DNA from: a virus
DNA length: 64,000 nucleotides
Reading direction: 5' to 3' (one strand)
UHGV virus genome: UHGV-0286546
A program made the translations under genes and the position numbers. This document shows, one piece after another, positions 2,563-47,526 of this stretch (positions are counted from its first letter, which is position 1; each line of letters starts with the position of its first letter). Below the pieces are notes generated by a model. It made no database searches and was not told where the DNA came from. It worked only from the letters and a program-made list of their open reading frames with translations.

Positions 2563-2650
2563 GGAGGAATGGCAGAGTGGCTTAATGCAGCGGTTTACTA
2601 AACCGTCGTACCGAAAGGTGCCGTGGGTTCAAATCCTACTTCCTCCGCCA
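2563..2650 (+). tRNA. tRNA-Ser (class II, long variable arm, G73), anticodon reads ACU as hand-folded
   Basis: Acceptor GGAGGAA/TTCCTCC, discriminator G, encoded CCA, long variable arm CGTACCGAAAGGTGCCG, T arm GGGTTCAAATCC; anticodon loop TTACTAA. Confidence 0.8.
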
Positions 2651-2657
2651 ATTTATT

Positions 2658-2751
2658 AGGTCTGTCGTTCAATGGTTAGGACACTAGGCTTATACCCTAG
2701 CGAGCGTCTGATTAACGCGAAATCCCAGTTCGAGTCTGGGCGGACCTACCA
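2658..2751 (+). tRNA. class II tRNA (long 23-nt variable arm, A73) with anticodon loop CTTATAC = anticodon UAU as hand-folded (Leu-like body, Ile AUA anticodon)
   Basis: Acceptor AGGTCTG/CGGACCT, D stem GTTC/GGAC, anticodon stem CTAGG/CCTAG, T arm CCCAG-TTCGAGT-CTGGG, A + CCA. Confidence 0.7.
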
Positions 2752-14376: not shown

Positions 14377-14408
14377 TTTACATTATACCATATATTAAAT
14401 ATAATAAA
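14377..14408 (+). promoter_or_regulatory. sigma70-like promoter GGTTTTACA-N17-TATAAT
   Basis: Consensus -35/-10. Confidence 0.45.
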
Positions 14409-14431: not shown

Positions 14432-14761
14432 ATGTATAACCAACAAAAAGTAAATAATTTTAAAACACTATTGAGAATAAAATACCCAACGCCTCTTGCT
14501 GATGGAAACGAAGCACAAAAGTTGGCCTGGCGTATCTTTAATCATTTAACTACAACATATAATCCTAAAATAGAAGCATTAGATACGTATGACTCTCCAA
14601 AAACGCATTATATATTATTTATAGGTAACAAACGTATAGATGTTGAATTATCCTCATCTGCTTTTTATGTTAAAGATGTACCACTTTGGACAGTAGATGA
14701 AAAAGAAACTTATCTAAACAGTACATTTATAAATTACTTGCTAAATGAAAATTTAATATAA
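14432..14761 (+). CDS. hypothetical protein
   Basis: ORF with SD aaaggatataac. Confidence 0.5.
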   Translation: MYNQQKVNNFKTLLRIKYPTPLADGNEAQKLAWRIFNHLTTTYNPKIEALDTYDSPKTHYILFIGNKRIDVELSSSAFYVKDVPLWTVDEKETYLNSTFINYLLNENLI

Positions 14762-14775
14762 AAGGAAGATAAATC

Positions 14776-15075
14776 ATGGGAACTAATTACTACTTACACA
14801 CTGACTTCTGTCCTTGCTGTGGAAAACCTAAAAAAGAAATTCACCTGGGTAAGTCTTCCTTCGGTTGGAAATTCTTAATTCATAAAACAAAGAAAACTTC
14901 TAATTATAAAGATTTTTGTAATTTTTTAAAAACAGGAATAATTAAAGACGAATACGGTGAAGAATGGACAACAGAAGATTTTCTAGATTTAGTAAACGCA
15001 CATCAAAACGATAAAACTGATAAAGACTGCGAAATTATTGACGGATATGCTTTTTTAGATTGTGATTTTACTTAA
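14776..15075 (+). CDS. hypothetical protein (CPCC motif)
   Basis: ORF with SD aaaggaag. Confidence 0.5.
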   Translation: MGTNYYLHTDFCPCCGKPKKEIHLGKSSFGWKFLIHKTKKTSNYKDFCNFLKTGIIKDEYGEEWTTEDFLDLVNAHQNDKTDKDCEIIDGYAFLDCDFT

Positions 15076-15087
15076 AGGAATAACGTA

Positions 15088-15540
15088 ATGAAAATATTTG
15101 GATACAACATTTTAAAAGATTCCGAACTTGAAAGAATTAAAAAAGACCATTGGGAAGATTTTAAAAAATATCTTAAAATAAAAAAGCTTTGGCATATTGA
15201 CTATCACTGGGAAAAGAAACCTAAGTGTTCTGCTTGTGATGAAAAAAGAAAACTAACCATACAAATGCCTGATGGTAGCACAACAAAAATTTCTTGCTCT
15301 TGTGATAAAACTATAACAATAATGGAAGTAGCCCCACTCGATAAGGAATTACCTATTATCGCTGTTAAAGGAGAAATCGTATATATGGCTGATGGGTTTA
15401 GTGAATGGAGTGTTAGTGGCAGAATTATATTCAAACAATCAGAATTATATACCACAGAAGAACATTTAGATAGATGTTTCTTTACTTCAAAGAAATTAGC
15501 TGAGCAGGCTTTAAAAATTATAAAGGAAAATGAAAAGTGA
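15088..15540 (+). CDS. hypothetical zinc-binding protein (CSAC...CSCD)
   Basis: ORF with SD aaaggaataac. Confidence 0.5.
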   Translation: MKIFGYNILKDSELERIKKDHWEDFKKYLKIKKLWHIDYHWEKKPKCSACDEKRKLTIQMPDGSTTKISCSCDKTITIMEVAPLDKELPIIAVKGEIVYMADGFSEWSVSGRIIFKQSELYTTEEHLDRCFFTSKKLAEQALKIIKENEK

Positions 15541-16223
15541 CTTTATTGATTGACAATACAGATAAACTAAAAGCTATAATGGAATTTAATCCATCATTAT
15601 CTTATTATAAATTTGTCTGTTTGATAAGAGAAAAAGATTATAAAGATAAAGAAATGCCTCTATCTAACAAAGAAAAACAAGAAATACTTGTAAAACAATG
15701 GCTTGTTGATTCCCAAGAATCATTAGATAAACAATTGCCTGATATGCTTAAAATGACAGATATGTTTAAATGTAGATTATATATGTGCTTAGATAGAAAA
15801 TCTACAATGAAAACATTAGTACAGATGAGAAATCAAATAAATAATTATCTTGATCCATTTTTGGGTAATGATAATCCTAGCTGTTCTATTAAAGCTATAA
15901 ACAAAGTCATTATATCAGCAAGTTCTGTTTCTGAATCTTCTGATAAAAAATTTAGAAGATGGTTATATGATTGTGATTCATTGTCTTCATCTTTGAAAGA
16001 ATATGTTAGAGATGATTGTGGACAATTTTATCTAGCAACATTTAAAACAAAAAACGGTTATCATGTTGTTGCTAAAAGAGAGTTTAATGGTACTAGTGTT
16101 ATATCTGAATTAGCTGATTATGCTTTTGAAAATGGGTTAACTAAAGAATTTTTAGATTCACAAAATAGACCACTAGTTGAACTAAAAGAAAATGCTATGG
16201 TATTGGTTGCTATGGGAGAGTAA
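15537..16223 (+). CDS. hypothetical protein
   Basis: GTG start overlapping upstream stop (GTGA). Confidence 0.5.
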   Translation: MTLLIDNTDKLKAIMEFNPSLSYYKFVCLIREKDYKDKEMPLSNKEKQEILVKQWLVDSQESLDKQLPDMLKMTDMFKCRLYMCLDRKSTMKTLVQMRNQINNYLDPFLGNDNPSCSIKAINKVIISASSVSESSDKKFRRWLYDCDSLSSSLKEYVRDDCGQFYLATFKTKNGYHVVAKREFNGTSVISELADYAFENGLTKEFLDSQNRPLVELKENAMVLVAMGE

Positions 16224-16225
16224 CA

Positions 16226-16528
16226 ATGGAAATTAAAGATAGCATACCAAAAATTCCAAGTAATAGATTTTTATTTGAAAATTGGAACTCAAGATTTTGT
16301 ATAAACTTTTATGATATGTATGAGAATAAGGAATTTATAAAAAGTAAAATCATAGGCTGGTGTGAATCATCAAAAGTTTTTGCGAGAAAAAGAAATGACG
16401 AGGAATCCATTGCTATTATGCTTGATGATAATACTTGGTGTCATTTTCCAACCTTTGCGATTGAGTGTTTAATAGGTAAAGATATGAGAAATTTTTGGAA
16501 TTTTGAAAAGTATGAGGTCAAAGAATGA
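16226..16528 (+). CDS. hypothetical protein
   Basis: ORF with SD gggagag. Confidence 0.5.
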   Translation: MEIKDSIPKIPSNRFLFENWNSRFCINFYDMYENKEFIKSKIIGWCESSKVFARKRNDEESIAIMLDDNTWCHFPTFAIECLIGKDMRNFWNFEKYEVKE

Positions 16529-16680
16529 TTAAAGTGGCAATTTATAATAGCTATTATTCTTGGGTAAATGATGAACCAGAGGCTGTATTAACCTTGAAAG
16601 AGTTTGAAGATGAGTTTAACAGCAGATTAGATAATAATTTAGACTTTGACCCTAGTCGTATCAGATTTATTGTTGAATAG
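16525..16680 (+). CDS. small hypothetical protein (51 aa)
   Basis: ATGA overlap with upstream stop; not in >60 aa track. Confidence 0.35.
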   Translation: MIKVAIYNSYYSWVNDEPEAVLTLKEFEDEFNSRLDNNLDFDPSRIRFIVE

Positions 16681-16688
16681 GAAATTAA

Positions 16689-16931
16689 GTGATGTTTGAA
16701 GTACCAGAAGAAATATTGATTTATGCTTTTAGATATGCATTAGGTAGATTATCTTCTTCCCCCTACGATGTTGCTATATTGTTGATTAAAAACAAAAATA
16801 AAATAAGTAAGCATTACAAAACTATGATTGTAAATGAAATAGACTTGTTTTTAAGTTTGAAAGAAGATCATCCTAAAGATTTGGTAGAATTATGGAAAAC
16901 TGTTAAAACCGAAATGGAAAGGACAAATTGA
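16689..16931 (+). CDS. hypothetical protein
   Basis: ORF. Confidence 0.5.
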   Translation: MMFEVPEEILIYAFRYALGRLSSSPYDVAILLIKNKNKISKHYKTMIVNEIDLFLSLKEDHPKDLVELWKTVKTEMERTN

Positions 16932-17203
16932 TGTCATATTATTCAGAAAAAGATGAAGTGATATTCTATAATAGTCCTACAAATGATGAAATTGAGCTTT
17001 ATCTTATGTTAAATTGGGAAGAACTGAAAAAGAACAATTATATTTGGGAAGATATTAATGGTAAGAGGTTTAAAGAAAATCAAATAGATAACAGATATCT
17101 AAAAAATATAATCCGTTATTGTAGACGAAATTTTAGACCGCAAGAACAAATAACAGCTTTAAACAATCTAGCTTTAAGAAGGGGTATCAAATGGCACGTT
17201 TAG
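16931..17203 (+). CDS. hypothetical protein
   Basis: ATG overlapping upstream TGA. Confidence 0.5.
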   Translation: MSYYSEKDEVIFYNSPTNDEIELYLMLNWEELKKNNYIWEDINGKRFKENQIDNRYLKNIIRYCRRNFRPQEQITALNNLALRRGIKWHV

Positions 17204-17595
17204 AAGAAGTTTTATCAGAGTTCAGAAAAGGAGCGAAAATTAGAGCTACTCATTGGGATAAAAACTCCTATATCGAAATCAAGAATGAAGAGATTGTTGA
17301 TTGTAAAGGAACTGATGTCGGTGATTTACCATTTTATAAAGTAATGAACAATGATTGGGAATTTTATCGAGAACTAGAACCAGACTGGGATTATATCATT
17401 AAGAATAAGTGTTTATGCTGGTTTTGGGATAAAAGAGAAGATCACAAAATAGCAGGAATTTTAGAAAAATATTGTAATTTAAACAATATAAGTAGATTTA
17501 TTGTGAATATTTATGGGGAAGAAGCAGGTTTTTTTCACTGTCGTCCTGTTTGTAAAAATGAGATAAACTTTTATGAGGATAGAAAAGATGAGTAG
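17191..17595 (+). CDS. hypothetical protein
   Basis: ORF. Confidence 0.5.
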   Translation: MARLEEVLSEFRKGAKIRATHWDKNSYIEIKNEEIVDCKGTDVGDLPFYKVMNNDWEFYRELEPDWDYIIKNKCLCWFWDKREDHKIAGILEKYCNLNNISRFIVNIYGEEAGFFHCRPVCKNEINFYEDRKDE

Positions 17596-17803
17596 ATACG
17601 ATTATATGGATAAAGAAATCCTAGCTAATTTGCTATATGAGAGAGATAAAGAAATTGAATCTCTAAAAGATGAATTACGCTCAGAACGTAGAAAAAAGGA
17701 AGATTTAATGTATGAAGTAACAAAATTAAAACCTTATGAACAACGAGCAAAAAACTCTTATGATAATTGGGTTACAAACGCTGAAAGAGAAATATATGAA
17801 TAA
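17587..17803 (+). CDS. hypothetical coiled-coil protein
   Basis: ATG after gatagaaaag. Confidence 0.45.
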
Positions 17804-17891
17804 AGAAATATTTAAGGTTCAAATAAGCGTGAATAAAAAGTGGGCATCTTGTTTATAATGAAAACCGAAGATTTTACAGAGGATAGAAAAG

Positions 17892-18074
17892 ATGGGATTT
17901 GAAGAAGCATTAAATTATATGAAAGAAGGTAAAAAAGTCTATATCAACGGTGATGATTACGCAATCATTGACGATGAAATAAGAGTTTTCCCAAATAAGT
18001 GGGATGATGATTTTCCAGCTTCGTTGGATAGTGATTTAATTTTATCTGATAATTGGAGCTTATGCGATGAGTAA
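17892..18074 (+). CDS. hypothetical protein
   Basis: ORF with SD gaggatagaaaag. Confidence 0.45.
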   Translation: MGFEEALNYMKEGKKVYINGDDYAIIDDEIRVFPNKWDDDFPASLDSDLILSDNWSLCDE

Positions 18075-18209
18075 AGAAAAGGTCTATATCTGTGTCGGTG
18101 AGGGCTACATAAACAACATCAGACAAGGCTTGTGCGGTGGCTATGGAACTGTTAGTAATATCATTCAATGGTTATTTAATCGTTCAAAAAAAGATTGTTT
18201 CCCTGAATA
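18066..18209 (+). CDS. small hypothetical protein (47 aa)
   Basis: ATG overlapping upstream stop; glycine/cysteine containing. Confidence 0.3.
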
Positions 18210-18313
18210 AACAGACAAGGAAATAATTAATTATTTTGCCAAGAATTACCGGAAAAGGTTTGAAGAAAAGAGCAACGAAAGCGGAGGTTGGAGTATTCAA
18301 AAGGAGAAATCAG

Positions 18314-18508
18314 ATGTGGCAGAAGATTAAAAAAATTTTAAATTTATACAAAAATTGGTTTTTATCAATATTGAAAATTTTATTTTTGATTTGTTTATTA
18401 ATAATGAGTTTAACTGTAATAATATTATCAGCCCCTTTTATTATTTCAACAAAAGTTCAAACGGTTTTACAAAATATGTTTGATAAGATTATAAGGTTTA
18501 TGTGGTGA
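18314..18508 (+). CDS. MWQKIK-family small membrane protein
   Basis: SD aaggag; shares 19-nt start region gatgtggcagaagattaaa with 18508 and 19122. Confidence 0.45.
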   Translation: MWQKIKKILNLYKNWFLSILKILFLICLLIMSLTVIILSAPFIISTKVQTVLQNMFDKIIRFMW

Positions 18509-18699
18509 TGTGGCAGAAGATTAAATGCTGGCTAAAACAACTATTTTGCAAGCACGAATGGAAGTGTTTAAATTATGACTGCAAATATCGTAAACCGAAT
18601 TGGTGTGGTGACGAGGGTTTAATTCATGGATTACCGTTATGTTGGGCTTGTTATTCTCGTCATGTAGTTTGTAAACATTGTGGAAAGATAAAAAAATGA
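18508..18699 (+). CDS. MWQKIK-family Cys-rich protein
   Basis: Shared start region; 10 Cys. Confidence 0.45.
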   Translation: MWQKIKCWLKQLFCKHEWKCLNYDCKYRKPNWCGDEGLIHGLPLCWACYSRHVVCKHCGKIKK

Positions 18700-19112
18700 G
18701 TGTACAAGCTTGTAGAATAAGAGGATTTGGTTATAAATTTGATTATGAATATCCATTGTTCTCTTTTATAAAAGGTGAAGATGAAGAAGAAATATTAGAC
18801 AACGAATATGACTTCATTGATGTTTTGGGATTGAATTTTAGTTATTATGATATGCATAACACCCCATCTGATAAAAATAAACGCAAATTAATGATTATTA
18901 CAGATGGAATGAATGGAAACTATAAAGCCGTTATGTTTGTAACTCAAGTTATTGATATGTATGATACTCATGGATTTTATGAGCAGGGTTGGGTAAGAGA
19001 TTTTAGAAATGACGACTGGTTGCGAAAATGTGCGAAAAGAGATATTGAAACGTTATTACAGCGAAAATTTGATGAAGAACCTATTGAATTAGATTTAGAA
19101 TATTATAGTTAG
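18696..19112 (+). CDS. hypothetical protein
   Basis: ORF; ATG overlapping upstream TGA. Confidence 0.5.
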   Translation: MSVQACRIRGFGYKFDYEYPLFSFIKGEDEEEILDNEYDFIDVLGLNFSYYDMHNTPSDKNKRKLMIITDGMNGNYKAVMFVTQVIDMYDTHGFYEQGWVRDFRNDDWLRKCAKRDIETLLQRKFDEEPIELDLEYYS

Positions 19113-19121
19113 GAGATTGTG

Positions 19122-19394
19122 ATGTGGCAGAAGATTAAACGCTGGTTTACTAGACCGTTACTTAAACCTAGAACAGTGTTAGCTAGAGCTGATATAGGCG
19201 GAGAATGGTTTAGATTTAAAGTTCATAAAGGTAACCAAATTTACCTATATTGGTTTGGTTATATGTTTCCCCTCGAGTTGCAAGAAGATGGTTCAACTAT
19301 TTGTAAAAAAGAGGGGATAAGAGGATACAATAAACCATATTATTGGCATTGGATAGGAGATGACGGTAGAGATTGTCGTCAGGCAACGTTGTAA
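19122..19394 (+). CDS. MWQKIK-family protein; 3' end is a frameshifted copy of the 3' end of 18508..18699
   Basis: Shared start region; ttgtaaatattgtggaaagatt vs ttgtaaacattgtggaaagata with 1-nt indel. Confidence 0.45.
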   Translation: MWQKIKRWFTRPLLKPRTVLARADIGGEWFRFKVHKGNQIYLYWFGYMFPLELQEDGSTICKKEGIRGYNKPYYWHWIGDDGRDCRQATL

Positions 19395-19436
19395 ATATTG
19401 TGGAAAGATTAAGTAATTTTTATAAGGATAGAAATG

Positions 19437-19874
19437 ATGAGTAAATCAAAACCAGAAGTCGGTGATATATGGGAAATATCTGATCCAAACGCTGGAACTT
19501 ACCGAGCTCTTGTCATTAATACAACCAACTTTAAACATCCCTATTGTATTACAGATGACCTAGAAGGATGTTTTTTATGGGGCTATTCAACTGAAACATA
19601 TATTGGTAACTCTAAAGGTTCAATTTCGGCTTTATTTGAGGTAAAAAACGATAATATTATAAAAGTAGGACAGATTTACGAATTACCAGAAACAAAGGGT
19701 AGAGTTGTTGTTATTAGAGCTCCTGAAACAAAATCTCCATTAGATTGGGTGTATTTTATTTTTGATAATGGATATACCAAAAGATTATGGCAGAAAACAG
19801 TTAAAGAGCTTAAACTCATCACAGAATACCCCACTTGGCAGGAGGCCGTTAATTCAAAGGAGTTTAAAAAATAA
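19437..19874 (+). CDS. hypothetical protein
   Basis: ORF. Confidence 0.5.
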   Translation: MSKSKPEVGDIWEISDPNAGTYRALVINTTNFKHPYCITDDLEGCFLWGYSTETYIGNSKGSISALFEVKNDNIIKVGQIYELPETKGRVVVIRAPETKSPLDWVYFIFDNGYTKRLWQKTVKELKLITEYPTWQEAVNSKEFKK

Positions 19875-19990
19875 TACAAATGGGGATGTGATAGTTTAGG
19901 CGTTTGAAATACTAGTTAGCCGATACGAAAGAGATTCCACCGGTGCGACTCTGGACATCCCCACTATTTTAACAAAGGAGTTTAAAAAAT
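19855..19990 (+). repeat. 18-bp direct repeat caaaggagtttaaaaaat flanking a ~100-nt GC-rich hairpin element
   Basis: Copies at 19855-19872 and 19973-19990; internal 9-bp stem tggggatgt/acatcccca. Confidence 0.6.
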
Positions 19991-20186
19991 GATTGATATT
20001 ATAAAAGCCTTCTGTGAAATGATAATAGATACTACTGTCATTACATTACTAGGTATCGTGTGTATTCTTCTATTTGTATGCGCCTTCTTATTTTTTCCAT
20101 TTAAAAGTATAAAAGCTTGGTTCGGTACACAAATATATAAAATCGCAGATACTATGGAATACTACTTAACAAAAACTGAATACTAA
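19989..20186 (+). CDS. small membrane protein
   Basis: ORF; hydrophobic core. Confidence 0.45.
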   Translation: MIDIIKAFCEMIIDTTVITLLGIVCILLFVCAFLFFPFKSIKAWFGTQIYKIADTMEYYLTKTEY

Positions 20187-20189
20187 AAC

Positions 20190-20930
20190 ATAACTACTAC
20201 TGAAAGATAAACAAATGAACACTACTGATAAAACATACCTCAAATCAAGAACTAAAACTGAATATAAACTCCTATCCTATATAACAAAAACACTAAACCT
20301 TAACTCAAAAGACTTTAAAATTAAAAAAGCCAAACGTAAAGATAAACCCTCTATGCTAATGTCTTCCATGCCAATTATAACTAACGTCTACAAATTTCTA
20401 AAAAATAATTATAACCTACCAGAACTTACTATATCTACATCATATTATTCAGATACAAAAAAACTACTAAGAAGATCTCATACTGAATATAATGTCCTAC
20501 ACCTCAAAATAAACAATACAGTACAAGATCCTCAAGACATACTAACCCTACTCCGTATTAAAAACTCTATATAACACACAATCTACCTATAGGGGCCATA
20601 CGTATATTACACAACCTACTACGTTAATAACTACGCTAATAGCTACACTAACTCCAACATGGCCCCTCTACATATCCCATAACCATACATACCACACAAC
20701 TTCACCTACAATACCTACAAGGGGCCTTACTTATACCTATACAACATAATACGGACCTACAACTATACTAGCCTATAAACTAACTTTACCTTTGGCCCCT
20801 CTACGAACTCTACGACTAATACTTCCCTTGCTACCTATGTACCCTGCCTTGCTACTTCTGCCTTTCTTTTATTTATCTTAACACTTCCAACGCTTCCCCT
20901 CCTACTGGATTTTATATTGAGCTTATTATT
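20190..20930 (+). repeat. G-depleted (A/C/T) strand-biased tract with four spaced GGGGCC/GGCCCC inverted motifs
   Basis: Top strand nearly G-free for ~750 nt; AGGGGCC at ~20591 and ~20721, GGCCCCTCTAC at ~20661 and ~20804. Confidence 0.6.
20215..20574 (+). CDS. LRIKGY-family small protein (ends ...DILTLLRIKNSI) encoded in G-depleted DNA
   Basis: C-terminal family motif; unusual A/C/T-only codon usage. Confidence 0.5.
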   Translation: MNTTDKTYLKSRTKTEYKLLSYITKTLNLNSKDFKIKKAKRKDKPSMLMSSMPIITNVYKFLKNNYNLPELTISTSYYSDTKKLLRRSHTEYNVLHLKINNTVQDPQDILTLLRIKNSI

Positions 20931-20939
20931 TATATACGT

Positions 20940-20970
20940 AAAGGCCCCATGGCGGGGGGCCCACCATGAG
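20940..20970. repeat. GC-rich palindrome aaggccccatggcggggggcccaccatg
   Basis: ggcccc/ggggcc hairpin with CCATGG; isolated GC island in AT-rich DNA. Confidence 0.5.
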
Positions 20971-20974
20971 ATAA

Positions 20975-21470
20975 TTAAAATATTTTCAATGGTGAATTTT
21001 TTTTATTTCAATGGTGAAAAAAATTTATTATTATAAATATATAATAAATAATAAAAAAGCTTAATTAAAAAAATTTTAATATAAATATAAAAAATACAAG
21101 GTTAAAATTTTTATTTTCAAGGCTAAAATTATTTATTATAATAAATTATAATTTAAAATAAAATTTTACAAAAGCTTTTTATTTTATATAATATGCAAGT
21201 TTGTAAATTTATTTTAAGAAGTAAATTAAAAGCTAATTAAATATAAAGAGCTTCAAGGCTAACTTTTTTGTTTTCAAGGCTTAAAAAATATAATATAATA
21301 AAAAAATTTTAATTAAAATAATAAAAAGCTTCAAGGTTGAAATTTTTGTTTTCAAGGTTCAAATTATTTATTATTATAAAAATATAATAAATAAAAAATT
21401 ATAAAAGCTTTTTATTTTAATAATAATATGCAAGTTTATAAGTTTATTTATTAAATATAAAAAAAGAATC
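20975..21470. repeat. AT-rich tandem/direct repeat region (ttttcaa(g/t)g(c/g)t.aa units; two ~130-nt higher-order repeats ending TATAATATGCAAGTTT)
   Basis: Repeated units visible at ~20985/21007, 21100-21230 and 21330-21460; no ORFs. Confidence 0.55.
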
Positions 21471-21623
21471 TAATCGTAATTTGTAAATATATAATACAAT
21501 TACAATTAGCCCTAGGAGAACAGTTGTCTCAGAGCTGTTGTGATTATACTATATATTTCGTTTTGACAGAGATGATATATATAGATTTTGTAAATTAACC
21601 AACCACTATGAAAGGAAAAAGCT

Positions 21624-21959
21624 ATGACAAAGGCTAAAAAAACCATGACTGTTGAAGAAGTACGTAAAGCAAGAGAAGAAAACATCCCGGTAGTATTTAA
21701 TATGATAGCTGCACTGAAGGCCATAGAAGATACGCCTGCCAAGGTTGTTAAAAGCGGTGCTCTTGGTGATTTCAGTAAGGATATTATGGAATTGTTTAGG
21801 CAGGCCGGTACCCCCTTGGCATTAAATCAGGTAAGAGCGGCACTTATAGCAGGGGGTAAGGAAGTTACAGCGAAGCAGGTTGCTGATAGATGCTGGTTGC
21901 TTGCGAAGCGTGGTCAGTTGAAGAAGGGTACTGATAAAGGTGTATATGAGTTAGCTTAA
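21624..21959 (+). CDS. hypothetical protein (possible small DNA-binding protein) in GC-richer island
   Basis: ORF preceded by TTAACCAACCAC motif and SD; codon usage much GC-richer than neighbours. Confidence 0.55.
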   Translation: MTKAKKTMTVEEVRKAREENIPVVFNMIAALKAIEDTPAKVVKSGALGDFSKDIMELFRQAGTPLALNQVRAALIAGGKEVTAKQVADRCWLLAKRGQLKKGTDKGVYELA

Positions 21960-22132
21960 GAGCGCCGCATGGTAATTGATATAAGGGGATGTCGTTAGTG
22001 ATGTCCCCTTTTGTTGTATATGAGTAGTATATATAAACGACGAAGATGAGTGAGCGTCGCTTATACATATTGCTTGATAGACAGAATTAAGTGATATGAA
22101 ACCCAACCGATATTAAATGAAAGGAAAATATT

Positions 22133-30975: not shown

Positions 30976-32208
30976 ATGGTTAAGAATGTACAAGATAAAT
31001 TGCTGATGCCGGAATTCACGATTGATACAGTTGTTAATGATAGTGGTATCGAAATTCCTGGTATCAAAAGAATGTATGATATTGCATTGGCTATTGGTGA
31101 TTCATTGATGCAGTGGGGTGGTCCAGGATGTGGTAAGTCTCAGTCAGTACAGCAGTGGAATGCAGATAAAGTTGCTGAGTATGAAAAACGTATGGCTGAA
31201 GGTGAAAAAGTAAAACCTTGGAATCCGGTCGTTTGTGATGTTCGTTTGTCTATGAAAGAGCCAGTTGATATGGTTGGTGTTCCTATTCCGACTAAAGATG
31301 AAAAAGGTAACATGACAACTGTTTGGGCAACTCCTTCGATGTGGCCTAAGAATGATGGTGAATTCGCTGGTGGTGTTATTCACTTGGATGAAATGAATCA
31401 GGGTCAAGCTGCTATTCTGAATGCTGCCTTCCAGTTGATTCAAGACCGTGCTTTGGGAGAATACAAAGTACCTGAAGGTTATATCATTATTGGTTCATCT
31501 AACCCGTCTGCATATAACTCTACTGTTACTGAGTTTTCTGTACCATTGTCAAACAGATTTAGTCACTTCAATGTTAAACCTGACTTCGATTCTTGGTTGA
31601 ACTACAGAATGAATAACGGTGGTAACTTGGATGTTATGACCTTCTTAAAGACACAGGGTATGAATATGTTGTTTGATAAAGAAGGTATGGAAGCCAAAGT
31701 TGGTAGTCTTGCCGATGCTATGTATACAGATATTGTTATCACTCCTCGCTCTTGGGAAGTAATTGAAAAAGTATTAGCGCTTCCTGATGGTAATAAAGCA
31801 ACTGGTGGATTTACAATAGATGAAAAACAAAGATATGCAACCGGTCGTTTAGGTCTTGCTATTGCTTCCAGACTGTTTACTTGGTTGAAAGATAAAGCTA
31901 AATATCAAGACTGGAGAGAAATCCTTATCGATGGTAAAGACTTTAAAGATGAAAACAGTGAACAATTCTGGGCTGTTCAGATGGCATGTATGAATGCAAT
32001 CATTAACCAGAAAGATGATGCGAAATGTCGTGAATATTGCTTGAACTTCGTAAAGGCTACAGAAAAACTTAAGACTGCAGCATTCAAAGTTATCAATATT
32101 ACACAGTTGATTAGATGTAAACGTGTTGAAGGTAATCTCAAAATCTTCAATTCGATGAGAGATGCACCTAACTTGATTCGTTTGATTTCAACAATCACTC
32201 GCAGATAA
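30976..32208 (+). CDS. MoxR-like AAA+ ATPase (AAA_5 type)
   Basis: Walker A GGPGCGKS, Walker B VIHLDEMNQ, sensor region; TAACCCAACC motif + SD upstream. Confidence 0.8.
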   Translation: MVKNVQDKLLMPEFTIDTVVNDSGIEIPGIKRMYDIALAIGDSLMQWGGPGCGKSQSVQQWNADKVAEYEKRMAEGEKVKPWNPVVCDVRLSMKEPVDMVGVPIPTKDEKGNMTTVWATPSMWPKNDGEFAGGVIHLDEMNQGQAAILNAAFQLIQDRALGEYKVPEGYIIIGSSNPSAYNSTVTEFSVPLSNRFSHFNVKPDFDSWLNYRMNNGGNLDVMTFLKTQGMNMLFDKEGMEAKVGSLADAMYTDIVITPRSWEVIEKVLALPDGNKATGGFTIDEKQRYATGRLGLAIASRLFTWLKDKAKYQDWREILIDGKDFKDENSEQFWAVQMACMNAIINQKDDAKCREYCLNFVKATEKLKTAAFKVINITQLIRCKRVEGNLKIFNSMRDAPNLIRLISTITRR

Positions 32209-32740: not shown

Positions 32741-34117
32741 ATGACAGTTGATGTTAAAGAAATCTGGGAAGCTGCGATGGTTGAATTGGTCATTGAGTTT
32801 CCTATTTATGCACAACTTCTAACGAGAATAGGTACGACCTTTGTAAATGAACCTAATCGTAAGTTTGTAGCATGGACAGATGGTAGAACAATTTACGTTA
32901 ATGAGTCTATGATAAAAATGTTTAATGAAGATCCTATTGTTAAAGGTGATTCAGGAACACAGTATAACAGAGCCATTACAAAAAGAGAAATGATGTTCCT
33001 TCTGTGTCATGAGTTACTGCATCTTATTGGTTTAACTTACGATAGAGGTTCACAAAAAGGATTGTATCGTGGTGCAGTAAATGCTAACGATAGACACATG
33101 TGGGAATTATGGAATAAAGCCACTGACTATGAAATCAACAGCTTACTACATAATAATGAAAAGACTACAGACCGTGGCGATGTTGTACATAATGCTATCG
33201 GTAAAATGCCAGATTGGGTACTGTATGAAAGCGACTACCGTGACAAAACAGCAGAAGAAATCTTTGAAATCCTTAAGAAAGAGGATGAAAAGAATAATCA
33301 CGGCGGTGGTTCTGGTGGCTGTTCCGGTAAAGGTCAGTCAGCAGATGGAGGTCAAAGCTGTGGTAATAATGTAGATGGTCTTGATTTTAGTATTGATGAT
33401 CATATGCCAATACAGGATGATGCTACTAGAAACGAAGTACTTACTAAGATGTCAGAAGTATTCGGTTCAAGGACTAATGGTTTAGGTATGTCTTCAATCG
33501 ACAGAATGATTAATAACGTATATAAACCTCAACCCTTTAACTGGAGACGTGCACTTACTAGATATATTCGTGGCTGGATGAAAGATAACTATACTTGGAA
33601 CAGACCTTCTCGTGCTGGTATAGCGAATAACCTTATCCTTCCATCATCTGGTCGTACTCCTAAAATGCATATCGGAGTTGCAGTGGATACTTCTGGTTCA
33701 ATTCACGATACTGAGTTACATACTATGATGGATCACTTGTTTACCATTCTATCACAGTTTAAAGACTTTACTGTAGATGTTTGGTGTTGTGGTTCAAAAG
33801 TATATCCCGAAACGTTCCGAACATATACTGCATCGAATAAACGCGAACTACATAATTTCAAGTTTGCTTCTGATGGTGGTAATGATATGCGAGAGAATTT
33901 CAAGTTTATCAAAGAGAAATATAAACAGGATAAATTGGATGTCTTCATCTGTATGTCTGACTTCTATGATCCATTAGACGGTGATACAGAAACAGTAAGT
34001 CCTTGTCCTTGTATTTGGATGGTTCTTGATCACCCTTCATTCACACCACCGTCATTAATTAAAGCGGAAACCTATCCGTTTGTTGTTGAAGATAGTAAGA
34101 ACAATGCTGACTACTAA
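32741..34117 (+). CDS. vWA-domain protein with N-terminal DUF2201-like putative metallopeptidase domain (HExxH)
   Basis: LLCHELLHL motif; Gly-rich linker; MIDAS DTSGS at C-terminal vWA. Confidence 0.75.
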   Translation: MTVDVKEIWEAAMVELVIEFPIYAQLLTRIGTTFVNEPNRKFVAWTDGRTIYVNESMIKMFNEDPIVKGDSGTQYNRAITKREMMFLLCHELLHLIGLTYDRGSQKGLYRGAVNANDRHMWELWNKATDYEINSLLHNNEKTTDRGDVVHNAIGKMPDWVLYESDYRDKTAEEIFEILKKEDEKNNHGGGSGGCSGKGQSADGGQSCGNNVDGLDFSIDDHMPIQDDATRNEVLTKMSEVFGSRTNGLGMSSIDRMINNVYKPQPFNWRRALTRYIRGWMKDNYTWNRPSRAGIANNLILPSSGRTPKMHIGVAVDTSGSIHDTELHTMMDHLFTILSQFKDFTVDVWCCGSKVYPETFRTYTASNKRELHNFKFASDGGNDMRENFKFIKEKYKQDKLDVFICMSDFYDPLDGDTETVSPCPCIWMVLDHPSFTPPSLIKAETYPFVVEDSKNNADY

Positions 34118-40448: not shown

Positions 40449-40757
40449 ATGGATAAAGAAATAATAGAAAACATATTAGACTTTGAAGTTATCACTATGA
40501 ACATATTTCAAAGTCATTTGTTTGTTTCAAATATAGAAAAACATGAAGGTATAGATCATGTATGTCTTGTTATTGACTATACCAAAGATAATGCTAAAGA
40601 AAAAATAGAAGGATTATTACAGAATGCAGGAGTACAGTATACCTATATAAAATCTGATTACTCTAATTTCTGCGGTAAAATACTATTTAAAGTATCTGAC
40701 CTAGAACTTTTAAATACTTATCTACGAATTAAATATGCAGACAGTTTAATATACTAA
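40449..40757 (+). CDS. LRIKGY-family small protein (array A)
   Basis: ...LLNTYLRIKYADSLIY; ACCAACCAC motif upstream. Confidence 0.55.
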   Translation: MDKEIIENILDFEVITMNIFQSHLFVSNIEKHEGIDHVCLVIDYTKDNAKEKIEGLLQNAGVQYTYIKSDYSNFCGKILFKVSDLELLNTYLRIKYADSLIY

Positions 40758-40776: not shown

Positions 40777-41064
40777 ATGGCTATTTTACCACTATCAAAT
40801 TATATTAGAAGGTACTTAACACAAGGATCTCAATTGGCTTTTCATACTACTAAAGGAACTAAAATAATTGCTCCAGGTATGATATTTGGTTTACGTTTAT
40901 CTCATGATCGTAGAAAAATAAGATGTATTATAGAAGATGAAATCAATAAAGTCTTTACACTTACTAGAGAAGATTATCAATACTTATTAGATAATTCAAT
41001 TTCTATTCCTGAAGCAATCAAAGAAGGATACCTAACAGAAGATAAACTAACTATTTATGACTAA
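40777..41064 (+). CDS. hypothetical small protein in array A
   Basis: SD aaaggaggaatatact. Confidence 0.5.
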   Translation: MAILPLSNYIRRYLTQGSQLAFHTTKGTKIIAPGMIFGLRLSHDRRKIRCIIEDEINKVFTLTREDYQYLLDNSISIPEAIKEGYLTEDKLTIYD

Positions 41065-41351
41065 CCCTTTCTTTTCTTCTGTTTTTCGTTTTTCTTTTTA
41101 TATATTTTTTCTTTTAACTTTTATTATTCTTTTCTTTAATATTTATTATTATTAATTTTAAATTTTATTATTTTTTTATTTTAACTTTAAATTTTTATTT
41201 TCATTTAACATTTAATATTTTTTATTATTACTTTTTTTAATACCCTTACTTTATTTAAGAGAAGTGAAAGAAGAAAACAAAGAAGAAAGCGAGAGAAGAT
41301 GCAAACACAGTTTAGAACCAGGTACTACGTAAAACCCAAATTATAAATACC

Positions 41352-45771: not shown

Positions 45772-45839
45772 AGTAGTTTAATTTCCTATATTAAGTTTTA
45801 AGTTAAACGTTTATATATTTTTAGTTTTTTGTATAGATA

Positions 45840-46620
45840 GTATGTATTTATATCTATGTCCAGAGTAGTGTAAAGATCCCGTAGGATGGGAAACTTAGTA
45901 TTAGTTATTTAATTAGAACAGTATATTTATGATAAAGTAGTGATTTGGAAGAATTTTTTTGTAAATTTTTTTATTTTAGTTGTATATGTAGGTATATATG
46001 TGGAGTATTTGGGTTAATGTAAGTATGTTATCGTATATATGAGTAGTGTAGTATATAGTAGATAAAAGGTAACGTGATGAGATTGTATGTAGTTATATGG
46101 TGTATGTGTATATATAGGTTGTAGGAATTTTTAGGAAATGTGTCGGCGTAGGTAGATTGTGATATATAGTGGGTATGTATGATTGTAGATAATTGGTTTT
46201 ACGTTTACTGTATTACATGGTATAGTAATGGTAATAATGAAATGAATGATATGAGAGGATGAGCTACGTATGCTGAAAAGAGAATATAGAGAGGTATTAG
46301 GTACAGTATTAAGGAATGATATAGCGGAAGCACTTGACTTATTTACTGGTATTTGGTCAAGTGGTATATATAGAGTTGGTGTAGATAAAGGTGTTGAAAA
46401 AAGATATAATATAGATATAGTATGTAGTAAAGACCAGTATAAAAGAGTTAGAGAGTATGTAGAAGAGGCATATAATTTTAATGAAGAGAAGTTAGTATTC
46501 GATGAAAGTTATTTTGATAGTGCGCATTATTGTTATTCAGTTAGTGAAGAGAAGTTAATGCAGATTTATAGTTTACTTAGAATTAAAGGATATACGATGA
46601 ATTAATCCTAATGTATGGTA
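45840..46620 (+). repeat. C-depleted (G/T/A) alternating purine-pyrimidine tract spanning divergent promoter region and gene 46270..46605
   Basis: Top strand almost C-free; runs of TG/TA alternation (gtatgtgtatatatagg etc.). Confidence 0.55.
46270..46605 (+). CDS. LRIKGY-family small protein (array B, first member) encoded in C-depleted DNA
   Basis: C-terminal ...LMQIYSLLRIKGYTMN. Confidence 0.55.
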   Translation: MLKREYREVLGTVLRNDIAEALDLFTGIWSSGIYRVGVDKGVEKRYNIDIVCSKDQYKRVREYVEEAYNFNEEKLVFDESYFDSAHYCYSVSEEKLMQIYSLLRIKGYTMN

Positions 46621-46704
46621 TATATTGTTTATTATAGATTCCTTTGATACTTAGTTGTATTGAAGGAATTTTTTTTACTATTTTGTTGTAATGGTAATAT
46701 TTGT

Positions 46705-46733
46705 TTTACATTTGAATAGTATTTTGGTATAAT
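46705..46733 (+). promoter_or_regulatory. sigma70-like promoter GTTTTACA-N17-TATAAT
   Basis: Exact consensus hexamers with 17-nt spacer. Confidence 0.55.
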
Positions 46734-46782
46734 ATATATAAAATGTAATGTTATAATGAAATAAAGAATTAGGAATGTATAT

Positions 46783-47526
46783 ATGAAAACAAGCATGTCA
46801 GTTTTTAGGCGTTTTGAAGTACTAGATAAATATTATACTGGTTATTCTACTTCTAAACAAATTATGAAGCACAAGGTTGAATTAGAAAGATTTAAGGGCT
46901 TATCTTTAGAAGAAAAATTGGGTAGTAAAATAAATGATTTGTTGTTACCTACTTGTGTATTAACTATTTTAGATTCCATTGGAGTATATTTATATTTAGA
47001 TCTTTATACAATTAATTTTGAAGTAAATGAATATAACTATCATAGATTAAAAACAAAAAAGATGGCATTGGGTATATTAAAAGCACATTTAGAAGCAATT
47101 GGATTAGGATTTGATATAGATGAAATAGATGATGAGATGATTAAGCGTATTCGTAATAAATATAATGATATGTATTCGAGTTTAAAGATATTAGAAAACT
47201 TTGGATTTGAAATTATTAAAAGTTGTAGATATGATGAATATGTTAATGCAGGATATAATACTAACTTATATAATTCTGTTGCAGCAGTTTTATTAAGTTA
47301 CCCTGCATTATTAGACTTTGTTGACTTAAAAGAAAGACAAGGAAAAAACGATAGTATATTTCCAGAATTAGTGGTTAAAAATACAGACGTTGATATGTTT
47401 ACTACTTTATGCAGGATTATGGATGTTAATTTCAAAGTTTGGTATGGCAGCAGAGGTAATAGAAAGTATCCACATAATACATATTTTGATGTGTTTTTAC
47501 CTAAGCGCTTAAAAAATGACATTTGA
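46783..47526 (+). CDS. hypothetical protein
   Basis: SD attaggaatgtatat. Confidence 0.55.
   Translation: MKTSMSVFRRFEVLDKYYTGYSTSKQIMKHKVELERFKGLSLEEKLGSKINDLLLPTCVLTILDSIGVYLYLDLYTINFEVNEYNYHRLKTKKMALGILKAHLEAIGLGFDIDEIDDEMIKRIRNKYNDMYSSLKILENFGFEIIKSCRYDEYVNAGYNTNLYNSVAAVLLSYPALLDFVDLKERQGKNDSIFPELVVKNTDVDMFTTLCRIMDVNFKVWYGSRGNRKYPHNTYFDVFLPKRLKNDI

What the first reader, a model, noticed from the sequence alone, without database searches (positions are those of the whole stretch)
20190..20970. ~750-nt G-depleted tract with four spaced, alternately oriented GGGGCC/GGCCCC motifs, ending in a GC palindrome
From the small intergenic region before gene 20215 to ~20930 the top strand is almost G-free, including the coding sequence of 20215..20574. 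The only G clusters are AGGGGCC (~20591, ~20721) and GGCCCCTCTAC (~20661, ~20804). These are mutual reverse complements, so each pair can close a ~60-75-nt G-less loop. The tract ends with aaggccccatggcggggggcccaccatg (20940-20970). In a ~30% GC genome this is highly non-random. Possibilities are a structured RNA, binding sites for a protein recognising GGGGCC, an element related to replication or packaging initiation, or sequence shaped by avoidance of a G-containing restriction or modification target.
Basis: seen in the sequence. Interest (0 to 1): 0.7.

Follow-up and report, generated by a model that had tools for sequence, protein, structure and literature searches.

The report
G-poor, C-rich operon-end tract in a jumbo phage
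A conserved ~0.75-kb stretch at the end of a phage operon has almost no G but extra C on the transcribed-sense strand, even inside a gene, and most plausibly acts as a structure-free, Rho-type transcription stop in front of a battery of strong promoters; this is inferred from sequence only.

Summary
Over 20215-20939 the + strand has 7.4% G and 26% C, against 17.6% G and 12.8% C in the rest of the window. All six GGGGCC/GGCCCC copies in the 64 kb lie within 20592-20961. Five related contigs keep the same composition, the hairpin clamps and the terminal GC hairpin.

The tract is not only G-poor. C is enriched even at synonymous sites: 16 of 16 Leu codons in ORF 20215-20574 are CTN, and TTA is never used.

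It is the longest and strongest sense-strand C>G "bubble" in the window (869 nt). Its + sense RNA is the least structured in the window for its G+C content. It closes a 14.4-20.6 kb rightward operon that has no intrinsic terminator. It sits directly in front of a tandem promoter array for gene 21624.

A mirror-image, C-depleted tract lies just upstream of the major capsid gene.

Best reading (confidence 0.35): a Rho-type (rut-like) termination and insulation zone punctuated by GC-clamped hairpins. Rivals are an R-loop or single-strand-exposure footprint, and a protein-binding RNA.

There is no Rfam match, no covariation and no unusual folding energy. Iteron-type origin, packaging and restriction-avoidance readings are poorly supported.

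The parts
20106..20974 (+). Uninterrupted C>G 'bubble' (78-nt windows). It is the longest (869 nt) and strongest (C-G up to 37%) on the + strand, and the only one lying in the sense of + strand genes.
   Evidence: composition
20215..20574 (+). ORF of 119 aa with G 6.1% and GC skew -0.56. All 16 Leu codons are CTN, all 11 Ser are TCN and all 18 Lys are AAA. The Shine-Dalgarno-like sequence is weak (GAAAGATAAACAAATG). It is probably a real gene, but recoded by the local composition.
   Evidence: (pN/pS 0.29-0.57, in-frame indel); homologues at 85-95% identity
20591..20667 (+). Long-loop hairpin unit 1: arms AGGGGCCAT / ATGGCCCCT, 59-nt G-poor loop. It is absent from L028 and L030.
20720..20800 (+). 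Long-loop hairpin unit 2: arms AGGGGCC / GGCCCCT, 67-nt G-poor loop. It is a paralogue of unit 1 (~130-nt tandem duplication).
   Evidence: (D10, D15)
20801..20892 (+). C/T-rich, G-poor tail. Its length varies among relatives (up to ~200 nt longer in L027 and L028) while its composition is kept.
20893..20939 (+). Conserved box CCCCTCCTACTGGATTTTATATTGAGC...TATATACGTAAA. The core CCTCCTACTGG is kept even in the distant relative L035. It resembles the element upstream of the capsid gene (CCCATCCTACGGGATCTTTA; L011 CCTCCTACTATTCTGGATTATA).
20943..20961 (.). GC hairpin GGCCCC-ATGGCGG-GGGGCC with no U-run on the + strand. Close relatives keep it. L035 has a different GC palindrome (CCCCCGGGGG) at the same place.
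20971..21500 (+). 12%-GC region with four doublets of (T)TCAAGGYT / CAATGGTG spaced 21-22 nt apart. Three doublets are followed by TATAAT or TATTAT at promoter spacing (TTTTCA-17-TATAAT twice, TTTTCA-17-TATTAT once), and TTTACA-16-TATAAT lies between doublets. This is a tandem promoter array for gene 21624.
21624..22010 (+). Gene for a 111-aa protein (no family match), followed by a canonical intrinsic terminator at 21983-22010. It forms a one-gene unit driven by the promoter array.
45772..46782 (+). Mirror-image tract: C 4.5% and G 22% on the + strand. It has a GTAG-rich non-coding part (45772-46269) and ORF 46270-46605 (skew +0.63, the most positive of 123 ORFs). It lies immediately upstream of the capsid gene (44188-45771, - strand), so the capsid-sense strand is the G-poor one.

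Best explanation
The tract is the 3' end of a rightward operon that starts near 14.4 kb. That operon has no hairpin-plus-U terminator.

Proposed mechanism. Its transcript becomes C-rich, G-poor and essentially free of secondary structure. This runs through the last small gene, two 130-nt repeat units and a C/T-rich tail. RNA of this kind loads the host termination factor Rho. I propose that Rho, or a functionally similar factor, loads here and releases RNA polymerase around the conserved box and GC hairpin. Read-through would then not run into the tandem promoters of gene 21624.

Role of the GC clamps. They are the only stable pairings possible in this RNA. They may hold 60-70-nt single-stranded loops, pause the polymerase, or protect the 3' end after termination.

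The same logic applies at the capsid gene. The capsid-sense strand is G-poor and C-rich for about 1 kb upstream, which would stop stray transcription into that gene.

Shown versus inferred. Shown: composition, lack of structure, position, conservation and the codon-level pressure. Inferred: Rho dependence and the insulating role.
For: - The tract is the longest (869 nt) and strongest (C-G 37%) C>G bubble on the + strand, and the only one in the sense of + genes. YC density is 0.13 per nt against 0.058 for the window. A chain of six YC dimers with 9-13-nt linkers is present. These are the published descriptors of Rho-dependent terminators (PMC6144790).
- The + sense RNA is the least structured in the window for its G+C content (residual z +3 to +4; -4 to -19 kcal/mol per 200 nt, against a median of -32).
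- Position fits an operon end. A promoter-like site lies at 14377-14405. All ORFs from 14432 to 20574 are on the + strand. No convincing + strand intrinsic terminator follows: the only hit is a 5-pair stem inside an ORF at 17989-18004, and none lies at the operon end. Neighbouring units do have canonical terminators: gene 21624 at 21983-22010, ORF 46270 at 46636-46671, and the capsid gene at 44152-44123.
- The tract is followed at once by a conserved promoter array.
- Composition is conserved rather than sequence. Five relatives have tracts of 676-895 nt with G 6.2-7.4% and C 26-30%. Insertions in the tail are also G-poor and C-rich.
- The pressure acts at the nucleotide level. Sixteen of 16 Leu codons are CTN and none is TTA, although TTA is also G-free and is the genome's favourite at 43%.
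- The ORF has a weak ribosome-binding site, so its RNA may be poorly covered by ribosomes.
- The mirror tract upstream of the capsid gene follows the same orientation rule. Extreme skew recurs at that position in L001, L002 and L013.
- L035, a distant relative, keeps a pyrimidine-rich C>G 3' region, the box and a GC palindrome.
Against: - All evidence is compositional or positional. There is no transcript or termination data.
- Half of the tract is a probably translated ORF (pN/pS 0.3-0.5). Ribosomes there would block Rho loading.
- A rut site needs about 80 nt, not 750.
- UC, one of the two YC dimers Rho prefers, is under-represented (odds ratio 0.41).
- The CTAC enrichment and the invariant GGGGCC clamps are not explained by Rho binding.
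- The host is unknown. The only hint is that one related contig was binned into a Succinivibrionaceae MAG.
- At the capsid gene the G-poor strand is antisense to real genes, so the transcripts to be stopped there are hypothetical.
- In L035 the depletion is much weaker (G 15%), and an ordinary intrinsic terminator lies before the promoter array.
Confidence: 0.35

Rival explanations
1. This is a footprint, or a functional zone, of one-strand exposure. Leftward transcription or priming would start near 20935-20960 and form R-loops or leave the - strand single-stranded. Deamination of the exposed - strand (C to U, A to hypoxanthine) would appear on the + strand as G to A and T to C. Alternatively, selection for a G-rich RNA on a C-rich template could produce the skew. 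The tract would then mark an R-loop-type origin or a very active antisense promoter.
For: - Both predicted directions of change are seen: G loss with A gain, and TTA to CTA with C gain at synonymous and replacement sites.
- The effect ignores coding orientation. ORF 20215 and ORF 46270 are both on the + strand but have opposite extreme skews.
- The skew is polar. It is strongest next to the hairpin and decays leftward. Tract 2 decays rightward from about 45920.
- The + strand non-coding composition (A 30, C 31, G 9, T 31) resembles the vertebrate mtDNA light strand, the classic single-strand-exposure signature (my own knowledge).
- A TATAAATA box lies on the - strand at 20934.
- An AT-rich, easily melted region is adjacent.
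Against: - No leftward gene and no convincing leftward promoter exists. The best - strand match is 9 of 12.
- TATAAATA occurs at the chance rate in this window: 13 on the - strand against 11.5 expected.
- All genes from 14.4 to 20.6 kb are rightward, so ordinary transcription predicts the opposite skew.
- T is not enriched on the supposedly exposed strand in the non-coding part.
- G density on the - strand (about 31%) and only two G clusters fall short of the usual R-loop-forming criteria (my own knowledge).
- The AT-rich repeats behave as promoters, not iterons.
Confidence: 0.2
2. This is a cis-acting or sponge RNA (or single-stranded DNA). The GC clamps would display 60-70-nt unstructured loops carrying repeated CUAC/CCUAC motifs for a sequence-specific single-strand-binding protein. 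Candidates are a phage regulator, an SSB-type protein or a host RNA-binding protein.
For: - CTAC occurs 13 times in 361 nt (3.2 expected from local composition). GTAG occurs 13 times in the mirror tract (3.4 expected). These are the only dense spots in the 64 kb.
- Dinucleotide order is strongly biased: TA 1.72, AC 1.52, CT 1.37, TC 0.41.
- The clamps and the loop-proximal sequence GGGGCC-W-TAC-N-TATA are invariant in 7 units.
- Units are duplicated or lost as wholes.
Against: - Loop sequences and lengths differ widely between relatives.
- There is no covariation and no Rfam family.
- Unit number (1 or 2) is not fixed.
- L035 has no units at all.
- No candidate binding protein was identified.
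Confidence: 0.15
3. The tract has no function of its own. It would be a locally decaying paralogue plus a low-complexity (CTA)n-like expansion. The composition would drift under a local mutational bias, and the hairpins would be remnants such as eroded tRNA-sized elements.
For: - Selection on the ORF is relaxed (pN/pS up to 0.57).
- L030 fuses the ORF to downstream sequence by a deletion.
- Tail length is variable.
- The units are tRNA-sized with a 7-bp acceptor-like stem. A degenerate tRNA-like element lies nearby at 19884-19964.
Against: - The composition and the clamps are kept in five genomes that differ by about 20% at synonymous sites.
- The box and the GC palindrome persist to 55% protein identity.
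- Drift would erode the G clusters first.
- ARAGORN at 75% of its thresholds and Rfam find no tRNA in the units.
Confidence: 0.12
4. The composition was shaped by avoidance of a G-containing restriction or modification target, or the tract is a packaging (pac) or terminus site recognised through GGGGCC.
For: - A strand without G carries no G/C-containing palindromes.
- Contigs L028 and L030 end within about 250-520 nt after the tract.
Against: - Avoiding a target would not enrich C or convert TTA to CTA, and it would act genome-wide.
- Contig breaks fall in the 12%-GC repeat array, a typical assembly failure point. The tract is internal in the 480-kb scaffold.
- No terminase gene was identified next to the tract; the neighbouring ORFs that were scanned gave no such match.
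- Variable spacing of the motifs argues against a fixed protein-DNA architecture.
Confidence: 0.04

Closest known systems
Rho-dependent terminators with C>G 'bubbles' (E. coli/Salmonella; phage lambda tR1 with rutA-boxB-rutB)
   Same: C-rich, G-poor, unstructured non-template strand of at least 78 nt. It is rich in YC, CA, CT, ACA and CAC, lies in untranslated RNA at a unit end, and has hairpins embedded between single-stranded segments (as boxB is in tR1). Descriptors are taken from PMC6144790.
   Different: About ten times longer than a rut site. It extends through a coding gene whose codons and amino acids have been reshaped. UC is under-represented. It carries invariant GGGGCC clamps with 60-70-nt loops. 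No evidence of Rho dependence exists.
R-loop-primed origins (T4 oriF/oriG, ColE1 RNA II) and GC-skewed R-loop zones
   Same: Strand-asymmetric G/C content next to an easily melted AT-rich region and promoters, with G clusters at one edge (my own knowledge of these systems).
   Different: No promoter was shown to read into the tract in the direction that would give G-rich RNA. No MotA-type box is present. G density is below the usual thresholds. The AT-rich repeats behave as rightward promoters.
Vertebrate mitochondrial light-strand composition (single-strand deamination asymmetry)
   Same: Near-identical base composition (A and C about 30%, G about 9-13%). Leu is encoded almost only by CTN, mostly CTA (my own knowledge, compared).
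   Different: A local 0.75-kb island in a double-stranded DNA phage rather than a genome-wide replication-driven gradient. It has sharp edges and conserved G clusters.
Unstructured operator of T4 gene 32 mRNA, and G-less viral leaders such as TMV omega
   Same: RNA kept free of secondary structure next to a stable nucleating fold (my own knowledge).
   Different: Those are short 5' leaders that control translation of the downstream gene. This one is a 3' region followed by a hairpin and new promoters.

Membership tests
Rho-dependent terminator (rut region) | Uninterrupted C>G bubble (78-nt windows) on the non-template strand | tested here: met
   20106-20974, 869 nt, maximum C-G 37%. It is the longest and strongest on the + strand.
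Rho-dependent terminator (rut region) | Regularly spaced YC dimers, (YC)N9-13, spanning six Rho subunits | tested here: inconclusive
   A chain of 6 exists and YC density is 2.2 times the window mean. However, UC is depleted (odds ratio 0.41).
Rho-dependent terminator (rut region) | Little RNA secondary structure | tested here: met
   The + sense RNA gives the most positive MFE residuals in the window (z +3 to +4).
Rho-dependent terminator (rut region) | Ribosome-free RNA at or after the end of the last gene | tested here: inconclusive
   361 nt lie after the stop codon. But 360 nt are an ORF with pN/pS 0.3-0.5 and a weak ribosome-binding site.
Rho-dependent terminator (rut region) | Termination depends on Rho (bicyclomycin-sensitive), and the host encodes Rho | not testable with these tools
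   The host is unknown. One related contig was binned with a Succinivibrionaceae MAG.
Intrinsic terminator | GC-rich hairpin followed directly by a U-run | tested here: not met
   No + strand hit in 19400-21800. The hairpin at 20943-20961 is followed by CACCATGAG.
R-loop-type origin (T4 oriF/oriG-like) | Promoter reading into the zone so that the RNA is the G-rich strand | tested here: not met
   The best leftward promoter-like site scores 9 of 12. The TATAAATA at 20934(-) occurs at the chance frequency. There is no AAGCA (MotA-box) sequence.
R-loop-type origin (T4 oriF/oriG-like) | Persistent RNA-DNA hybrid and replication start | not testable with these tools
   Needs DRIP or replication-intermediate mapping.
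Iteron-type replication origin | Repeated initiator-binding sites conserved among relatives, next to an initiator gene | tested here: not met
   Close relatives keep the CAAGGYT doublets. L035 instead has TTGACC...TATAAT repeats with promoter geometry. The neighbouring 111-aa protein has no family match.
Structured non-coding RNA (any Rfam family) | Match to a covariance model, a stable fold, and covariation | tested here: not met
   No Rfam hit at gathering score or at E<=5. z-scores are -0.22 and -0.94. Seven of the 9 clamp pairs never vary and there are 0 compensatory changes.
tRNA or tRNA-like element | Cloverleaf detected by ARAGORN or Rfam | tested here: not met
   The units are 67-87 nt with a 7-bp clamp. 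ARAGORN at 75% of its thresholds finds nothing in them.
MITE-like mobile element | Terminal inverted repeats, with further copies elsewhere in the genome | tested here: not met
   All GGGGCC/GGCCCC copies in the window and in each related locus lie inside the tract.

The most novel reading that the evidence does not exclude
These phages may keep one strand free of G for 0.7-1.8 kb immediately upstream of their strongest promoters, the capsid gene and the 21624 promoter array. The constraint is strong enough to recode resident genes. The product could be a dedicated structure-free nucleic acid. One possibility is a decoy RNA whose GC-clamped 60-70-nt C-rich loops (about the size of the Rho RNA-binding footprint) trap Rho or an SSB-type protein. 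Another is a purpose-built priming or R-loop zone. Either would be a new class of composition-encoded, rather than sequence-encoded, phage regulatory element.
Probability: 0.15. Interest if true: 0.8.

Novelty: new variant of a known kind. Interest (0 to 1): 0.5.

Why it matters
If the tract is a factor-dependent terminator and insulator, it would be an unusually clear natural example of function carried by base composition alone. The constraint would be strong enough to override codon choice and amino-acid content of an embedded gene (16 of 16 Leu as CTN; Glu, Asp, Gly, Ala and Val almost absent).

It would also give a simple computable signature for operon boundaries in uncultivated jumbo phages: a sense-strand C>G island in front of a strong promoter.

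If the R-loop or decoy readings are right instead, it would point to an undescribed way in which large phages organise replication or disarm host termination.

In every case the paired, oppositely skewed tracts form a testable rule. The G-poor strand is the sense strand of the strong promoter that follows.

Tried and rejected
- Megablast of the region and of 12 kb around it against INPHARED phages: no match.
- Exact-pattern scans for the clamp pair in IMG/VR: only unrelated high-GC chance hits.
- Scan for the terminal palindrome in IMG/VR: nothing.
- Scan for the unit pattern in JGI metagenomes: nothing. The same pattern in GTDB genomes gave one related contig, L030.
- The search for related loci with ORF 20215 and with gene 21624 in IMG/VR: nothing.
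- Pfam and PHROGs on ORF 20215, ORF 46270, ORF 40449 and gene 21624: no families.
- Hidden gene on the C-poor strand read with TAG reassigned: rejected. TAA and TGA stops remain in all frames, and TAG is frequent in all three frames.
- T4 late promoter idea: TATAAATA is not enriched in this window (17 and 13 found, 15.6 and 11.5 expected).
- Homology of ORF 20215 to the ORF 46270 / 'LLRIKGY' small-protein family. The similarity is suggestive: a shared ...LLRIK C-terminus, and VYKFLKNNYNL against VREYVEEAYNF, a difference that G-to-A pressure would produce. It is not significant (BLASTP E 0.024, hhalign E 0.044 with probability 1%).
- Trinucleotide or helical periodicity: only weak peaks.
- Purine-pyrimidine alternation (Z-DNA-like): elevated mainly in tract 2, not distinctive for tract 1.
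- A partner site complementary to the CCTCCTACTGG box: none found. The search instead revealed the similar box by the capsid gene.
- Literature searches for G-poor, C-rich phage tracts or Rho insulators: nothing specific to such an element.
Full report
**Context**

The window is part of a large, distantly T4-like phage.
- The major capsid protein (44188-45771, - strand) matches Pfam Gp23 at 7e-23.
- Twelve tRNA genes lie at 2.5-11.6 kb.
- G+C is 30%.
- The sequence is on a 480,241-bp ENA metagenome scaffold. Related contigs are 235-243 kb.
- There is no near match in INPHARED.

Over 20187-20935 the + strand has 7.3% G and 26% C. The window means are 17.5% G and 13% C.

ORF 20215-20574 has the most negative coding-strand GC skew of 123 ORFs (-0.56). 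Only two 400-nt segments of the window reach |skew| >= 0.55, this tract and a mirror-image one at 45751-46800.

All six GGGGCC/GGCCCC copies in the 64 kb lie at 20592-20961. Shuffles give a mean of 1.87 for the whole window.

They form three stems:
- AGGGGCCAT/ATGGCCCCT, with a 59-nt loop.
- AGGGGCC/GGCCCCT, with a 67-nt loop.
- GGCCCC-7 nt-GGGGCC, the terminal hairpin.

"Almost G-free" is too strong. Fifty-five G remain, and the loops hold 3-4 G each.

1. C is enriched, not merely retained. It reaches 31% in the non-coding part.

2. The pressure acts on nucleotides, not on the protein. In ORF 20215 all 16 Leu codons are CTN (10 are CTA). None is TTA, although TTA has no G and is the genome's favourite Leu codon at 43%. 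All 11 Ser are TCN and all 18 Lys are AAA. G falls to 3-4% at codon positions 2 and 3.

3. The ORF is nevertheless probably real. Five homologues at 85-95% identity exist. pN/pS is 0.29-0.57, position 2 changes least, and an indel is in frame.

4. The two long-loop hairpins are copies of a ~130-nt tandem unit. The conserved parts are TACCTA-N-AGGGGCC-W-TAC-N-TATA ... GGCCCCTCTAC.

5. CTAC occurs 13 times in 361 nt, against 3.2 expected from local composition. The dinucleotide order is strongly biased: TA 1.72, AC 1.52, CT 1.37, TC 0.41.

6. A C/T-rich tail follows. After it comes a conserved box (CCCCTCCTACTGGATTTTATA...), and then the GC hairpin.

7. Directly after 20970 lies a 530-bp region of 12% G+C.
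   - It holds four doublets of (T)TCAAGGYT or CAATGGTG, spaced 21-22 nt apart.
   - TTTTCA-17-TATAAT occurs twice and TTTTCA-17-TATTAT once on doublets. TTTACA-16-TATAAT lies between doublets.

8. Gene 21624 follows and ends in a canonical intrinsic terminator at 21983-22010.

**Relatives**

Five related contigs carry the tract: L027, L028 and L029 from Logan assemblies, L030 from a Succinivibrionaceae MAG, and L037 (which covers only the tail onward).

Their tracts are 676-895 nt long, with G 6.2-7.4%, C 26-30% and skew -0.56 to -0.65. In each locus every GGGGCC/GGCCCC lies inside the tract.

L028 and L030 have only one long-loop unit. Their deletion end-points differ. In L030 the deletion runs between CTCTA repeats and also removes the ORF stop codon.

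Loops and tail differ by many indels, but inserted sequence is again G-poor and C-rich.

The seven clamp pairs never vary in seven units, so there is no covariation evidence for or against the stem. Arm spacing of 61-81 nt without helical phasing fits a hairpin in a single strand better than paired sites on duplex DNA.

A more distant relative, L035, has a 21624-type protein at 55% identity.
- It lacks the units.
- Its depletion is only mild: G 15%, C 25%, T 44% in the non-coding part.
- It keeps the CCTCCTACTGG box, a different GC palindrome (CCCCCGGGGG) and a promoter array.
- Its promoter repeats are TTGACC-18-TATAAT.

L035 therefore shows two things. The AT-rich repeats are promoters rather than iterons. 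The deeply conserved parts are a pyrimidine-rich C>G 3' region, the box and the GC hairpin. The extreme G depletion and the GGGGCC units are elaborations of one lineage.

**The mirror tract**

Region 45772-46782 has C 4.5% and G 22% on the + strand.
- It has a GTAG-rich non-coding part: 13 GTAG against 3.4 expected.
- It contains ORF 46270-46605, whose skew of +0.63 is the most positive of all ORFs.
- It lies directly upstream of the capsid gene, so the capsid-sense strand is the G-poor, C-rich, CTAC-rich one.
- Close relatives keep it at 92% identity, and a 22-nt insertion in one of them contains no C.
- Extreme skew at this position recurs in L001, L002 and L013, over different resident genes.
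- A box similar to the one ending tract 1 sits there as well: CCCATCCTACGGGATCTTTA.

A common rule follows. For 0.7-1.8 kb upstream of a very strong promoter, the strand with that promoter's sense is depleted of G and enriched in C, whatever is encoded there.

**What it most likely does**

On the + strand the tract is the longest (869 nt) and strongest (C-G up to 37%) C>G bubble. It is the only one that lies in the sense of + strand genes. YC density is 2.2 times the window mean.

Its RNA is the least structured in the window for its G+C content. These are the published hallmarks of Rho-utilisation regions (PMC6144790).

The rightward operon begins near the promoter-like site at 14377-14405. 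It has no convincing intrinsic terminator: the only + strand hit is a 5-pair stem inside an ORF at 17989-18004, and there is none at the operon end. The three neighbouring units do have canonical terminators.

I therefore favour a factor-dependent (Rho-type) termination and insulation zone that keeps read-through out of the promoter array. At the capsid gene it would keep stray transcription out of a late gene. Confidence is 0.35.

Several points count against this reading:
- Half of the tract is an ORF.
- The tract is about ten times longer than a rut site.
- UC is under-represented.
- The clamps and the CTAC motif are left unexplained.
- The host is unknown.

**Rivals**

*R-loop or single-strand-exposure origin of the skew (0.2).* It explains the G-to-A and T-to-C directions, the indifference to coding orientation, the polarity and the mtDNA-like composition. 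It needs a leftward transcript, and there is no gene and no convincing promoter for one.

*Protein-binding or sponge RNA (0.15).* It explains the CUAC enrichment and the clamps. However, loops vary freely, unit number is not fixed, and no Rfam family or covariation supports a defined RNA.

*Functionless decay (0.12).* Conservation of composition, clamps, box and hairpin argues against it.

*Restriction avoidance or packaging (0.04).* These cannot explain the synonymous C enrichment. The contig ends near the tract fall in the AT-rich repeats.

**Verdict**

This is a real, conserved and strongly non-random feature. It is best filed as an unusual, composition-encoded variant of a factor-dependent terminator or insulator. 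Its mechanism is unproven and several features remain unexplained.

Noticed in passing
window 45772-46782: Mirror-image tract: C 4.5% and G 22% on the + strand, with a GTAG-rich 498-nt non-coding part and ORF 46270-46605 (skew +0.63). It lies immediately upstream of the capsid gene. Close relatives conserve it at 92%. Extreme skew at the same position occurs in L001, L002 and L013.
   Followed up: partly
window 41065-41290: The intergenic region after gene 40777-41064 has T 66% and G 1%. A polypyrimidine arm (CTTTCTTTTCTTCTGTTTTTCG...) faces a polypurine arm (AAGAAGAAAACAAAGAAGAAAG) about 170-190 nt away. This could form a large hairpin or a triplex at another operon boundary.
   Followed up: partly
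window 19881-19963: Perfect 9-nt clamp TGGGGATGT / ACATCCCCA with 65 nt between the arms. ARAGORN at 85% of its thresholds calls an 81-nt tRNA-like element with an aberrant anticodon loop at 19884-19964. Its 3' part (ACTCTGGACAT) matches the motif upstream of the capsid gene. It is absent from L028 and L029.
   Followed up: partly
window 20971-21500 (also L027 2168-2820, L029 1754-2400, L035 790-1290): Tandem promoter array in a 12%-GC region, with doublets of TTCAAGGYT 21 nt apart and TATAAT at promoter spacing. L035 has TTGACCAACCTAA repeats instead. The array drives a one-gene unit (111-aa protein with no family match) that ends in a strong terminator at 21983-22010.
   Followed up: partly
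window 45840-45925 (- strand) and L001-L015 upstream of the capsid gene: Two motifs are conserved upstream of the capsid gene in most relatives: GTTCTAWWAAATA and, 27-70 nt downstream, CTAYTCTGGA. They are likely late promoter or leader elements. The T4 late box TATAAATA is not enriched in this window.
   Followed up: partly
window 46270-46605 and 40449-40757; L002, L009, L010 upstream of the capsid gene: A family of ~110-120-aa proteins with no Pfam or PHROG match ends in ...L(L/Y)(R/K)(I/M)KGY. They often occur in tandem next to the capsid gene. ORF 20215 (...LLRIKNSI) may be a member recoded by G-to-A pressure, but the statistics do not support this.
   Followed up: partly
window 2563-2751: ARAGORN calls a tRNA-Ser with anticodon ACT (88 nt) and a 94-nt tRNA-Ile with anticodon TAT. 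Both the anticodon and the lengths are unusual and worth checking for introns or miscalls.
   Followed up: no
L027 10739-11589 versus window 30976-32208: In relative L027 the gene at the position of the window's 410-aa ATPase encodes a 576-aa product with intein (Intein_splicing, PT-HINT) hits. The window has no intein there but carries a 458-aa HNH endonuclease gene nearby at 32741-34117.
   Followed up: no
L030 (JBJFGR010000154.1), 26.8-kb contig: A contig of this phage clade is binned in a Succinivibrionaceae MAG. This is a weak host hint or a binning artefact. The contig ends inside the AT-rich promoter array, as L028 does.
   Followed up: no
ENA ERZ28658812 scaffold_5: The window's scaffold is 480,241 bp, about twice the 235-243 kb of related contigs. 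It may be a concatemeric or duplicated assembly.
   Followed up: no
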